A program made the position numbers and the translations under genes. Below, in pieces: positions 29,965 to 45,607 of a stretch of 64,000 bases of DNA (position 1 is the first letter of the stretch; each line of letters opens with the position of its first letter). The notes below the pieces were generated by a model. The model did no database searches, had not been told where the DNA came from, and saw only the letters and a program-made list of their open reading frames with translations. Source of the DNA: the human T2T-CHM13v2.0 reference genome, Homo sapiens; assembly GCF_009914755.1 (NCBI RefSeq), contig NC_060935.1. One strand, written 5' to 3'.

Positions 29965-30552
29965 AGGCTCAGCTTACATGGTGATAAGGTCTCATTCACA
30001 GAGAAGCAGGCTTCACTCACATGGGATCAGGCTTCACCCACATGGAACCAGGCTTCACACACATGGAATCAGGCTTCATTCACATGGTAATCAGGCTTCA
30101 CTCATATGGGATCAGGCTTCACTCACATGGAACCAGGCTTCACCCACATGGAACCAGTCTTCATTCACATGGTAATCAGGCTTCATCATGTGGGATCAGC
30201 CTTCATTCACATGGGATCAGCCTTCATTCACATGATGATCAGGCTTCACTCACATGGAGTCAGCCGTCAATCACATGGGATCAGGTTTCACTCACATGGA
30301 ATCAGGCTTCACTCACATGATGATCAGGCTTCACTCACATGATGATCAGGCTTCACTCACATGGAGTCAGCCGTCAATCACATGGGATCAAGTTTCACTC
30401 ACATGGAATCAGGCTTCACTCACATGATGATCAGGCTTCACTCACATGATGATCAGGCTTCACTCACATGGAATCAGGCCTCAGTCACATGGGAACCACT
30501 GTAGGATCAGGTTTCACCCACATGGGGTCAGGCGTGGCTCACATGGTGATCA
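29965..30552. repeat. Minisatellite with 21-22-bp unit (ATCAGGCTTCACTCACATGG[A/G] / ...CACATGATG), roughly 27 copies
   Basis: Tandem units visible directly; a 5-unit 107-bp block is duplicated (gagtcagccgtcaa at 30257 and 30364). Confidence 0.97.
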
Positions 30553-39390: not shown

Positions 39391-40774
39391 TTCTTTAATC
39401 ATAGAACCAGTGTTGGAAGTCTAGTCTTTCTGCTTCCAGCCCTAGTCCTCACACCACTGCTCCATACCACAACCTTGGAGGCTAATTAAGGCTGAATCAA
39501 AACAATTTTGACTGATATGATGTAAAAGACTTAGTCAATTGAAGAAATCAGATTTTTACACAGTTCAAATTATTCTTATTTTTACTTTTAAAAAAAGCTG
39601 TCTTGGCATAAGTAGAATCAACAATAAGACATATCCATGCTTGGCAAAATCTTGGGAAATTTGAGTTCTTATTTAACAAGCAGATTCACTGTTTTCTTGA
39701 TCCTAAAACTGGTTTCTGACCAGCACTGATCATTTCCATGGAGGAAACAAAATCTATCTGAATCTGAATGTTATTTAATTCTTGAAAATGGTATTCAAAC
39801 TAACATGAGATTTTATTCAGTTTAATAAAATACTACCTAATTAGGAAGAAGCTTTACTACTATCTCTAGGGATATATTAATATCATTAAGAAGAACATAT
39901 GCTTGAAAATTATATGTACATTTATAATTTTGTTCCCTTCTGAATAGAAAAGACTATTTAATTAAGATTATTACTATCTTTAAAGTTTTTCTCAAGGGAA
40001 ATGGTCTTCATGCTAAGCTACATATCTTCTATGGAAAAAAAATTGTCTAAAAAACCCTGAAATTCTACAAGTACATATGCTCTGGTTGTATCCTAAGGAG
40101 AACTCCCTTCCTCCCTCCCTCATTATATTTCTATTGTACAATATCAACCAGGGTTGCTTGCATGTGCTTGCTTGCTTGCTCTGTGATGATTTTTAACAAT
40201 TTTTTTTATGAGCAAAGTGGAGAGATAAACCAATTCTTCATATAATTTATACCAAGAAAAAAAAAAGAAGAAGAAGAAGACAAAAGAATACGGAGCCTAA
40301 CAGGAGGGTGCAGAAAAGTCCACCTGCTGCAATCCAGACAAGGATACAGATGACTGCTCATCCATCCATTTTGCTTTGTCCTCAGTCTGAACATCTTCTC
40401 TTCCCCTATGGTGAGTGTATTTCCGTTTGTCCCATGCTCTTCTATTTCCCTTCTATTTCAGGGTTCCACTTTCTTACTTCCCTTGCCCTGTGTATAATCT
40501 GGCCTCTGCTGATACTGTTCTCCCAAAGACCACCTTCCCTGTTATAGGTGAAACTGTGTCACAGTTGGAAATTATATCTGCACAGTTAAAAATTATATCT
40601 GTCTTAACTGATTACATAATTATTATATAATTACTATAGAACCAGCGCTGAACGCTAGTCTTTCTGCTTCCAGCCGTAGTCCTCATGCCACTGCTCCTAT
40701 ATCGCACCCCTGGAGGCTAATTAAGCCTGAATCTATAAATGGAAATCATTTTGACTGATTTAAAAGACTTAGTC

Positions 40775-41830
40775 CTGGAACTTAAAATTAAATTAAATTA
40801 AATTAATTTTTTTAAAAAGACAAAATGACAGGGGGACTCACATGATATCAATCTTCAATCTCTTCTAAGTACATTTAAAAGCACTCCAGAAGCATCAGTA
40901 TACACATATCACAACATTCTTCATCCATTGTTGAGTCCAATTATTGTTGAATATTTTGTTTTTGCCAAATAGCTACCTTTGAGGAATTTACAACCTAGTA
41001 GCCACAAACTACAAATTTCCCTAGTTATAAATCATTCTGGTTATTGGATTTTTAATTATATCATACCGAGCATGTACAAAAGAAAGTTTTATATATATAT
41101 AAATTATGAAACATAACAATGAAATAAATATCCTATGAATCTACCACCTAGCCTAAGAACTAGAATATTCCCAATGTCCATGAATTAACCTGCAAGCCCC
41201 TTTATTATCCCCACCAGAACTAACCACTCTCCTGAAATTTTGCGTGTATCTTTCCTTTGCTTTTCTTATAGTGTTATTCCATATATATGCATTTCTAAAC
41301 ACTAAATTAAGCTTTGCTTTTTTCAAACTTTTTTTAATGGCATTGTGCTGTATGGAGTCTTTTGTGATCTGCTTTTCTTTATTCAGTATTAAGTTTTAAG
41401 ATTTGTTCATGCTATAGCTGTGTAGCTGTGATTTGTTCATCTTAACTACTGTATAATGCTTCATTTTATTTATCTAGTCTCATGATGATGGACATTTGGG
41501 ATGTTCCCATTATTTTTCTATTACAAATAGCACTGCTAGGAACATTTTTGCACATGTGTGGTGTTTATAAACAAGAGTTTCTCTAGGATATACCTAGAAA
41601 GAGAAATGCTGGGTCCTGGAGCATATTCATTTCCAAAATGGCTATATCAATTTATAGTTCCCTCAGTAAGGTATAGTTTTCCATTGATCTATATTCACTC
41701 CAATAGTTAATATCAGCAGATTTATCTTTTAAATTTTGTGGATTTAGTGAATGTGTAATGTTATCGCTATTTTAATTTATGTTTCCTTGATTATCAATAA
41801 AATTTAGCACATTATCATAAAAAAGAAATA
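40775..41830 (+). mobile_element. L1-mediated 3' transduction: L1PA 3' tip, ~1 kb of flank, A tail
   Basis: TSD aaaagacttagtc at 40762-40774 and 41831-41843 at a TT|AAAA site; starts ctggaacttaaaattaaattaaatt; AATAAA at 41796-41801 before an A-rich tail; empty site preserved in the duplicate at 39524-39536. Confidence 0.8.
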
Positions 41831-42228
41831 AAAAGACTTAGTCAATTGAAATCAGATTTTTACAAAAATCTGTGTATAATCTGACCACAGATCTGTGTAT
41901 AATCTGACCCTAGGTAAAATTTGACCACAGATTATAATCTGTGTATAATATGATCTGCAAAGATGCCAGCAAACCACCAGAAGCCTGGTCTGCAAAGATG
42001 CCGGCAAACCACCAGAAGCAAGGTGAGGGGCATGGAACAGATCCTTCCCACCCAGTTCTTGAAATTGTCACCTAATGCTGCAAAACTATAGTTCATTGAT
42101 CCTCTTCTGCTGTTTCTTCCCATCTTCTCTGACTTCTTTTCCTCCACCCCCCAAAAATGTCAGTGCCCTCAATTTTCTATCTAAAATCATTTTATATCTA
42201 AAATTATATAATAATATAAATATTATAT

Positions 42229-42580
42229 AATTAGTTAAGACAAGGTCATACTGGAGCAGGGCGGGCTCCTAATCCAATATGACCCGTATCTTTACAAAGA
42301 GGGGAAATTTGAACAGAGACATCCACACAGCGAAAATGCCATGTGAACATGAAGACAGAGATTGAGACGATGCATCTATAAGCCAAAGATGCTGGCAAAC
42401 CACCAGAAGTGAGGTGAGGGGCATGGAACAGATCCTTCCCTCACAGCCCTCACAAGGAACCAACCTTGGGACACCTTAATCTAAGACTTCCAGCCTTCAG
42501 AACTGGAAGACAATAAATGTTTGTTGTTTAAGCTGTCTCGTCTGTGGTACTTTGTTACAACAGCCCTAGCAAACTAATAT
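42229..42580 (+). mobile_element. MLT1B/C MaLR LTR, 5' end lost
   Basis: gttaagacaaggtcatactggag..ctaatccaatatgac...gcaaaccaccagaag...tgtggtactttgttacaacagccctagcaaactaata. Confidence 0.9.
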
Positions 42581-42869
42581 ATTCCCATTCCAAATTTAAC
42601 AGTATTTTCTCTATATTCATCCACATTAACTTCTCACCTCAATTATAACAGTGGCTACCAAGTCCTTGAAATTCTCGCCTAATGCTGCAAAACTATAGTT
42701 CATTTCTCCTCTTCCACTATTTCTATCCTCTCTGACTTCTTTTCCTCCACCCTCCCAAAATGTCAGTGCCCTCAATTTTCTATCATTGTACTACTAATCA
42801 TTTTCATTGTACTATTATCTACTAATAATCATTGTCATTATTAGTGGTAATAATTTTTAAAATGGTAGC

Positions 42870-43080: not shown

Positions 43081-43926
43081 GCACAAAGCCACTTTCACAT
43101 TGCCTCTCATTTTCTTCTGCACAGATAAGAGATCTCCCAACCTCCTCTGAAATCTTACCAAATTCTACCGGTTTATCTTTTTCTCAGTGGAACTGATCTC
43201 ATATTCTATGTCTCAAAGCCATTTCCCTTCTGTACTCCAAGCCTGAATTTCTACCTGAACATTCTACAGATATCTCAAACTCCTCTTGACCAAAATGGAA
43301 CACCTCCCATTTCCTTTCAAACATGCTTTGCCTCTGTACCTGCTATGGGTTCCACAATCTTCCCAGCCAACAGTGTTTGGAAATGTCATGGCATTTTAAA
43401 AATTCATCTCTGTCCATTGGCCCTTTTTACAATCAGTTGCCAAGTAATGTTGATAAGTGATGAAACACTTATTTAGGTTGCCCTCTCCTCTCCATTCCAC
43501 CTGCCTGAACTATCCTAATAGTCACCTAATGTCTCTCCACATTTCATCCTTCCTTCCTCCCATCCATCCTATGTCCTATCACTGAATTCTCCTAAAACAC
43601 TCTTCTCATCAGGTTATGCTCATTGCCTAAGAAATCAGATCCAAACTCCTTGCACAGATGATGAGGACCCAGTTGGATGTAGCCTCCGTCTATCTTTCCA
43701 GTCTCCATGCACCAAACAAAACTTCTGGCAGTTTCACACACACCCAGGCTTTCCTGCCATGGTTCCATCTGGGATGCCCTCTGCAACTCACATTCTTTTA
43801 GTTCAAATGCTCCCTGCTATAAAATTTTACTGTTGGATATATCTCCCTCTTCTGAACTCACTTACATTTTACTTCTACTTGAATCATTATCACTTTCCCC
43901 CCTCTAATTCAACTGTCTATGAGTCT

Positions 43927-45607
<1,681 letters not shown>

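What the first reader, a model, noticed from the sequence alone, without database searches (positions are those of the whole stretch)
40762..41843. Near-orphan L1 3' transduction, with its empty site preserved 1.2 kb away
Seen: a 13-bp TSD (aaaagacttagtc) at an L1-endonuclease TT|AAAA site brackets ~1.05 kb. The insert begins with only the tip of an L1PA 3' end (ctggaacttaaaattaaattaaatt), continues through unique and old antisense L1ME-like DNA, and ends AATAAA + ~17 nt + A-rich tail. The duplicate at 39524-39559 has the uninterrupted sequence aaaagacttagtcaattgaa. Inference: DNA copied from downstream of a source L1 elsewhere, which repeat annotation would probably show only as unrelated fragments.
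Basis: partly seen in the sequence, partly recalled or inferred. Interest (0 to 1): 0.7.

Follow-up and report, generated by a model that had tools for sequence, protein, structure and literature searches.

The report
Ancient L1 copy-paste with vanished parent
A 1-kb piece of chromosome 9 sits copied into chromosome 11 with every mark of a jumping gene (L1), but its origin holds no parent L1, so the parent was likely lost long ago; the copy lies inside a likely DNA-repair scar whose template keeps the uninterrupted site.

Summary
An exact 13-bp TSD (40762-40774, 41831-41843) at TTT|AAAA brackets 1,056 bp: an L1PA 3' tip and tail (19 of 19 sampled genomic copies of the tip are L1PA ends), then 1 kb with one full-length paralog, C9:113,013,193-113,014,248 (90.8% over 993 columns). 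The donor has the AATAAA but no A-tail, and its old repeat runs on past the cut, so C9 is the origin and the copy passed through RNA, roughly 30-45 My ago. The junction there is itself an empty TT|AAGA endonuclease-type site. Most likely (0.58) the source L1 never fixed. Against this, a 300-bp fragment of the same L1 type ends 47 kb upstream on the same strand (chance 0.2-1%), so a long-range template jump stays open (0.2). The 'empty site' is the template of a 160-bp patch in a 600-bp repair-type patchwork that splits an LTR (5-bp TSD intact), a known class (repair-mediated duplication). It is a new member of known kinds, with no sign of function. Primate orthologs were not available.

The parts
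39401..39560 (+). Template ('empty site'): 160-bp local donor of a repair-type patch; carries the uninterrupted 13-mer at 39524-39536
   Evidence: 136/150 columns; only 2 copies found
40488..40501 (+). 14-nt template copied twice into the scar (41870-41883, 41893-41906)
40535..40539 (+). 5-bp TSD (TTCCC) of the old LTR, left copy
40540..40561 (+). 5' stub of an old LTR-type repeat (MLT1-like; name recalled)
   Evidence: summed mismatches to 8 relatives' upstream regions 64, null mean 82; 0 of 300 random 22-mers as good
40560..40635 (.). Scar, left part: fold-back, 21-nt tandem copy, inverted copy of 42209-42242
40636..40774 (+). Left half of the 160-bp patch copied from 39401-39536
40762..40774 (+). 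5' target-site duplication, 13 bp, after TTT|AAAA
40775..40816 (+). L1PA 3' tip (about 14 nt), (AAATT)n end and T/A tail; 2-nt microhomology (TC) with the TSD end
   Evidence: 19/19; 7/19 relatives have the same T-run then A tail
40817..41818 (+). Transduced DNA from G000:C9:113,013,193-113,014,248 (minus strand): unique DNA, then an antisense old repeat
   Evidence: (902/993; K2P 0.099 +/- 0.011)
41796..41801 (+). AATAAA, also present in the donor, 17 nt before the cut
41819..41830 (+). Decayed poly(A) tail, absent from the donor
41831..41843 (+). 3' target-site duplication
41844..41864 (+). Right half of the patch copied from 39537-39560
41864..41957 (.). Scar: palindromes/fold-backs and repeated 23-mers
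41958..42049 (+). Scar: two copies taken from 42384-42440 (inside the LTR)
42050..42181 (+). Scar: 130-bp patch copied from 42657-42784 (beyond the LTR)
   Evidence: 116/128
42225..42581 (+). Remainder of the old LTR-type repeat (73-79% to dispersed relatives)
42582..42586 (+). 5-bp TSD (TTCCC) of the old LTR, right copy

Best explanation
The 1,056-bp insert is an L1-made, RNA-derived copy of C9 DNA carrying only the tip of an L1PA, and its parent was likely a full-length L1 that once sat at the empty TT|AAGA site on C9 and was never fixed in our lineage. Steps: (1, inferred) about 30-45 My ago an L1PA (L1PA8/8A-like; name recalled) inserted at C9:113,014,248. (2, product shown) Its RNA read past its own end and one AATAAA, and was cut 17 nt after the second. 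(3, hallmarks shown) Target-primed reverse transcription at TTT|AAAA on chr11 copied the tail, 1 kb of flank and about 40 nt of L1, stopped at a 2-nt microhomology, and left a 13-bp TSD. (4, inferred) The source allele was lost while the daughter persisted. (5, anatomy shown, mechanism inferred) The target was a 160-bp patch inside a break-repair patchwork that had split an LTR, so the patch's template 1.2 kb upstream shows the pre-insertion sequence.
For: There is one full-length paralog. Sub-searches in which all candidates were scored found no sibling (4/4, 58: 2/2, 59: 8/8, 16: 2/2). The donor lacks the tail, and 6 of 6 old-repeat relatives tested align across the cut on C9 but stop at or before 41819 on chr11. 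Homology starts exactly at TATT|AAGAC on C9. TT|AAAA or TT|AAGA occurs at 35 of 13,718 possible junctions in 20 kb (0.26%), or 35 of 1,297 (2.7%) given an AA overlap. The tip is an L1PA end in 19 of 19. Ages fit: non-CpG K2P insert/donor 0.093 +/- 0.010, among tip-type L1s median 0.115, IQR 0.098-0.131. The AATAAA used has a T/GT-rich downstream stretch and the skipped one does not. Sources absent from the reference are documented for young elements ('proxy elements', PMC13009371 section 10; PMC12593883 passages). Scar: 473 of 599 nt (79%) are tiled by local templates, control median 9%, 1 of 90 windows higher (the tandem array). The LTR's 5-bp TSD is intact.
Against: The source L1 is not seen; its existence is inferred from an empty site. 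A 300-bp fragment of the same L1 type ends 46.9 kb upstream on the same strand (C9:113,061,423-113,061,120). This model treats it as coincidence. The subfamily's tail is itself rich in TTAA, so microhomology could also favour a TT|AA junction; the broad motif set given AA has an 8.4% chance. The template copy reads GT|AAAA, not TT|AAAA. No primate outgroup could be searched.
Confidence: 0.58

Rival explanations
1. Long-range jump in cis. A long RNA on the C9 minus strand (a host transcript, or read-through from a once longer L1) spanned both places. L1 reverse transcriptase started at its poly(A), copied 1 kb, jumped about 47 kb along the same RNA to the A-rich tail of the upstream L1 fragment, copied about 40 nt and integrated. 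No L1 ever sat at the junction.
For: A same-type, same-age L1 end lies on the correct strand 46.9 kb upstream (2 mismatches to the tip; K2P to 19 relatives median 0.111), with chance 0.2-1%. Both it and the insert have a T-run then A5 tail. It has no clear TSD, so it may once have been longer.
Against: The fragment is 300 bp with no promoter or ORF, and 75 AATAAA lie between. Its own 3' flank is absent from the insert. The T-run tail is common (7 of 19), and the number of AAATT units differs. The model leaves the TT|AAGA junction to chance (2.7-8.4%). In the passages read, described L1 chimeras put the non-L1 RNA 5' of the L1, the opposite order (bioRxiv 10.1101/2025.02.02.635956).
Confidence: 0.2
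2. The source L1 was fixed at the C9 junction and later removed precisely by recombination between its two TSDs.
For: It gives the same empty TT|AAGA junction as the best explanation. Precise TSD-mediated loss is recalled from the literature, not read here.
Against: It needs a rare second event that then fixed. No remnant can be expected or was seen.
Confidence: 0.1
3. Trans mobilisation of a non-L1 polyadenylated C9 RNA (a class 1 TSIP-like event), with a template switch onto an unrelated L1 RNA's 3' end.
For: The TSD, endonuclease site, AATAAA and tail are all expected for class 1 TSIPs (PMC5110952 passages). Template switching by ORF2p is described.
Against: It leaves both the endonuclease-type junction and the upstream fragment to chance. 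The order L1 tip 5' / unique DNA 3' is the transduction order (PMC4859970).
Confidence: 0.07
4. Spliced read-through from the upstream L1 fragment to an AG at the donor junction.
For: The junction can be read as ...AAG|AC, and an upstream L1 of the right type exists.
Against: There is no GT at the end of the fragment's tail; the nearest AG|GT is about 24 nt further and those bases are not in the insert. The AG is preceded by A, with no pyrimidine tract.
Confidence: 0.03

Closest known systems
L1 3' transduction (partnered, severely 5'-truncated; near-orphan), as defined in Hancks & Kazazian 2016, PMC4859970 (passages read)
   Same: TSD within 4-20 bp, YYYY/RR endonuclease site, two A-rich tracts, downstream AATAAA, untemplated tail, donor on another chromosome.
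   Different: About 30-45 My old rather than polymorphic; only about 14 nt of L1 body; no source L1 at the donor.
'Proxy elements' and source-less transductions (PMC13009371 section 10 read; PMC12593883 passages read)
   Same: A truncated reference L1 plus transduced flank whose source is absent from the reference.
   Different: Those concern young elements whose source is polymorphic today or may be lost or rare; here the source is likely extinct, and a same-type fragment lies 47 kb upstream.
Repair-mediated duplications (RDs), Pace et al. 2009, PMC2671141 (parts 1-2 of 8, passages and Table S1 chr11 rows read)
   Same: A 160-bp patch, donor about 1.2 kb away, inside an interrupted TE, with deletion and filler. 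The paper gives mean 162 bp, a distance peak near 1,200 bp and the highest rate at 30-42 Mya.
   Different: At least 4 local templates plus fold-backs in one scar (the paper describes 20 chimeras of 2 donors), and a later L1 transduction nested in one patch. The locus is not among the 123 chr11 places of Table S1.
SD-MMEJ / snap-back templated insertions (Khodaverdian et al. 2017, PMC5728401, passages read)
   Same: Short fold-backs, loop-out repeats and repeated rounds of annealing and synthesis.
   Different: Patches here reach 130-160 nt from 0.5-1.2 kb away, far beyond the roughly 30-bp range tested in that fly assay.
Class 1 templated sequence insertion polymorphisms (Onozawa & Aplan 2016, PMC5110952, passages read)
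   Same: TSD, cryptic AATAAA, tail, TTTT/A site, distant intergenic donor.
   Different: This insert carries an L1 tip and internal tail 5' of the unique DNA.

Membership tests
L1 3' transduction | Target-site duplication of 4-20 bp | tested here: met
   13 bp exact
L1 3' transduction | Insertion at an L1 endonuclease site | tested here: met
   TTT|AAAA at 40759-40765
L1 3' transduction | L1 3' end and first A-rich tract upstream of the unique DNA | tested here: met
   19 of 19 tip copies are L1PA ends; tail type shared by 7 of 19
L1 3' transduction | Templated poly(A) signal and untemplated tail | tested here: met
   Donor has AATAAA but no tail
L1 3' transduction | Donor locus is ancestral (sequence continues past the cut) | tested here: met
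   6 of 6 relatives span the cut on C9
L1 3' transduction | Full-length source L1 directly upstream of the donor | tested here: not met
   None at the junction; about 58 kb upstream examined, only a 300-bp same-type fragment at 47 kb. Absence is compatible with a lost source, but the feature is not shown.
L1 3' transduction | Transduced DNA begins with the source's 3' TSD (an endonuclease site) | tested here: inconclusive
   Junction is TT|AAGA (chance 0.26-8.4% by model); the TSD itself cannot be seen without the source
L1 3' transduction | Empty chr11 site in outgroup species | not testable with these tools
   The genome has no relatives here; the local template gives an internal stand-in
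L1PA8/L1PA8A subfamily | Diagnostic 3'-UTR positions against a curated consensus | not testable with these tools
   No repeat library; name recalled; age estimate compatible
Repair-mediated duplication (RD) | Insertion of 50 bp or more interrupting a TE | tested here: met
   LTR stub 40540-40561 and remainder 42225-42581 share a 5-bp TSD
Repair-mediated duplication (RD) | Single donor within 5 kb, more than 50 bp away | tested here: met
   1,234 bp; only 2 copies found
Repair-mediated duplication (RD) | Deletion, filler or microhomology, and no poly(A)/TSD on the patch | tested here: met
   About 80 bp of LTR missing relative to relatives; fold-backs and filler
Repair-mediated duplication (RD) | Empty orthologous site in an outgroup | not testable with these tools
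   No primate genomes held

The most novel reading that the evidence does not exclude
The insert is a pseudo-transduction. L1 reverse transcriptase jumped about 47 kb along one long C9 RNA, from a cryptic poly(A) end to the A-rich tail of a dead upstream L1 fragment, and wrote a product that looks like a 3' transduction although no source L1 ever stood at the donor. Some 'missing source' transductions would then be long-range template jumps in cis.
Probability: 0.2. Interest if true: 0.65.

Novelty: new member of a known kind. Interest (0 to 1): 0.4.

Why it matters
Under the best explanation the insert is a fossil of an active L1 allele that left no copy of itself: its position, strand, tail type and age can be read from the daughter. 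Old transductions with empty donor sites could then count how many ancient source L1s were purged, something so far seen for young elements. The locus also stacks three events whose order can be read from one genome: LTR, repair scar, L1 insertion. If the upstream fragment is causal, it points to an undescribed long-range template jump. There is no evidence of function: the supplied annotation shows no gene or functional element here.

Tried and rejected
Segmental or DNA-level duplication from C9: rejected, because homology stops exactly 17 nt after AATAAA, the tail is untemplated and the donor's upstream DNA is single-copy. Direction chr11 to C9: rejected. Sibling transductions from the same donor: none in 4 searches with all candidates scored; searches scored only 40 of 119 and 40 of 178 candidates, so very short siblings can be missed. 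The L1PA at C9:113,011,939-113,012,604 as source: rejected, it lies downstream of the cut and has another tip type. The template (39401) as the derived copy: rejected, because the other copy lies inside the split LTR. One coupled event for scar and insertion: not supported beyond equal age (31/341 vs 91/993 mismatches, Fisher p = 1.0); both processes peaked at 30-42 Mya. One search listed only 100 of 275 matches and missed the upstream fragment, which one search found by direct reading. Papers not held, so not read: Khan 2006, Szak 2003, Boissinot 2006, Pickeral 2000; the older genome-wide transduction surveys may already mention source-less cases or this locus. Searches for ancient source-less cases returned 0 papers and 1 paper. 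Earlier findings of the scan could not be consulted.

Full report
Observation. The 13-mer AAAAGACTTAGTC is exact at 40762-40774 and 41831-41843 and occurs a third time at 39524. There are no other copies in the window; 0.002 would be expected. The first copy follows TTT, giving TTT|AAAA. The insert is 1,056 nt, with AATAAA at 41796, 17 nt, and a 12-nt A-rich tail.

The donor. A genome search with the insert gave one full-length paralog, G000:C9:113,013,193-113,014,248, minus strand (40 of 119 candidates scored). It aligns to 40817-41819 with 902 of 993 columns identical, K2P 0.099 +/- 0.011, non-CpG 0.093 +/- 0.010. Searches with three parts of the insert and with the donor junction, in which every candidate was scored, gave only chr11, C9 and short old-repeat hits, so no sibling was found. 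C9 has the AATAAA but no tail. The old repeat there continues across the cut: 6 of 6 relatives chosen for spanning it align through it on C9 and stop at or before 41819 on chr11. C9 is therefore the origin, and the copy passed through a polyadenylated RNA. An earlier AATAAA 309 nt into the donor was skipped. It lacks the T/GT-rich downstream stretch that the used one has (30% T against 47%).

The tip. The first 25 nt of the insert occur exactly at 36 places, against 0 for the reversed control. I examined 19 of the 35 others (every second one plus L028). All 19 are preceded by the same L1 3'-UTR-type sequence, and 7 of 19 have the same T-run then A tail. The L1 bases just before the tip (TC in most copies) equal the last two of the TSD, a 2-nt microhomology. 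These L1s differ from each other by median non-CpG K2P 0.115 (IQR 0.098-0.131; 169 pairs), slightly more than insert against donor, which fits activity late in that subfamily's time. The name L1PA8/8A is recalled; no repeat library was available.

Age. Table S1 of PMC2671141 gives an empirical scale (chr11 acceptor rows of sheet 1). Duplications shared with marmoset have median 9.7% divergence (21 rows, 14 at 8% or more), catarrhine-only 5.4% (14 rows, 2 at 8% or more), great-ape 4.7% (11 rows). I left out 1 human-only row, 2 rows where chr11 is only a second donor, and sheet 2. The 9.2% seen here leans to about the New/Old World monkey split. That paper places L1PA7/8/8A at 30-42 Mya. The scale is rough: short patches, a different divergence measure, different chromosomes.

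The missing parent. There is none: homology begins at ...TATT|AAGACAAAG in unique DNA. That junction is itself an endonuclease-type site (bottom strand TCTT/AA, fitting the pyrimidine/purine rule in PMC4859970, passages). TT|AAAA or TT|AAGA would be hit at 35 of 13,718 positions (0.26%), at 35 of 1,297 (2.7%) if an AA overlap is required, and at 8.4% for a broad motif set. A transduction begins with the source's 3' TSD, so this is what a vanished source would leave. Sources absent from the reference are described for young elements (PMC13009371 section 10; PMC12593883 passages).

The result against this reading. To test for a more distant source I read about 58 kb upstream. An L1 end of the same type (2 mismatches to the tip, 86-89% to relatives) ends at C9:113,061,120 on the same strand, 46.9 kb upstream. 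437 kb of unselected strand-bases held none at 3 or fewer mismatches. But the fragment is only about 300 bp and has no clear TSD, no GT at its tail end and none of its own flank in the insert; 75 AATAAA lie between it and the junction. It cannot drive a read-through as it stands, and a canonical splice does not fit. A link would need a long RNA and a reverse-transcriptase jump in cis. Weighing a low prior for that against the coincidence, and the endonuclease-type junction on the other side, I give lost source 0.58, jump in cis 0.2, precise deletion 0.1, trans switch 0.07 and splice 0.03. These are judgements, not computed posteriors.

The 'empty site'. It is part of a 160-bp duplication (39401-39560 against 40636-40774 + 41831-41864; 136 of 150 columns) found only twice in the genome. 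The filled copy lies inside one old LTR-type repeat (MLT1-like, recalled). Its 5' stub at 40540-40561 matches the starts of dispersed relatives (sum 64 mismatches over 8; null mean 82; 0 of 300 as low; one relative, L055, did not match at its start). The rest lies at 42225-42581, and TTCCC flanks both ends. In place of about 80 bp of LTR stands a 599-nt patchwork (insert removed), 79% tiled by local direct or inverted templates. The control median is 9%, and 1 of 90 control windows, the tandem array, is higher. Templates include 39401-39560, 40488-40501, 42384-42440 and 42657-42784, plus fold-backs. This matches repair-mediated duplications (mean 162 bp, distance peak near 1.2 kb; PMC2671141 parts 1-2) with SD-MMEJ-like snap-backs (PMC5728401 passages). 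The repair pathway is inferred. The order is LTR, scar, L1 insertion. The patches are as diverged as the insert (31/341 against 91/993; p = 1.0), but both processes peaked in the same era, so coupling is not implied. None of the 123 chr11 places in Table S1 lies between 11.6 and 12.0 Mb (nearest acceptor 11.54 Mb). My conversion to that older assembly is approximate and recalled, and that pipeline filtered out transductions.

In print. Ten searches were run; none was by this locus's coordinates, and none showed it. The older transduction surveys could not be read. PMC9311842, PMC12350158 and PMC8199441 were seen as passages only.

Verdict. A real and unusually legible fossil: a near-orphan L1 3' transduction with an identified donor, no parent at the donor, and an internal copy of its pre-insertion site supplied by a repair-type duplication. 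Each part belongs to a known class and no function is evident. The missing parent and the unexplained upstream fragment lift the interest to 0.4.

Noticed in passing
G000:C9:113,061,120-113,061,423 (L086, minus strand): 300-bp L1PA fragment of the same tip type and age as the insert's tip, 46.9 kb upstream of the donor on the same strand, with no clear TSD; unexplained.
   Followed up: partly
window 30007-30494: 21-bp tandem array of about 23 copies. The annotated MIR8070 (30306-30393) lies wholly inside it, which casts doubt on that miRNA or makes it repeat-derived.
   Followed up: no
window 39520-39527 vs 40757-40765: The template reads GT|AAAA where the filled patch reads TT|AAAA, with small indels just upstream. 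Either the template mutated later or the patch gained the endonuclease site.
   Followed up: no
G000:C9:113,011,939-113,012,604 (minus): A second L1PA 3' fragment of another tip type about 590 bp downstream of the donor's cut site, same sense; not the source.
   Followed up: yes
window 43920-45316: Antisense L1PA 3' portion, 93% identical over 1,370 nt to a copy at C9:113,043,551-113,044,920; ordinary subfamily likeness.
   Followed up: no
G000:C6:29,660,470; 29,695,287; 29,788,093: Three tip-type matches within 130 kb on the same strand, probably one L1 multiplied by tandem segmental duplication.
   Followed up: no
G000:C17 (L056, L057, L059, L060 and others): Several LTR relatives with near-equal scores, two of them (L056, L057) with near-identical flanks; probably copies within segmental duplications.
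   Followed up: no
L027 (G000:C1:39,517,729): A very short L1 end (about 30 nt before the same tip) directly behind an Alu-type tail; another extreme truncation or an Alu/L1 chimera.
   Followed up: no
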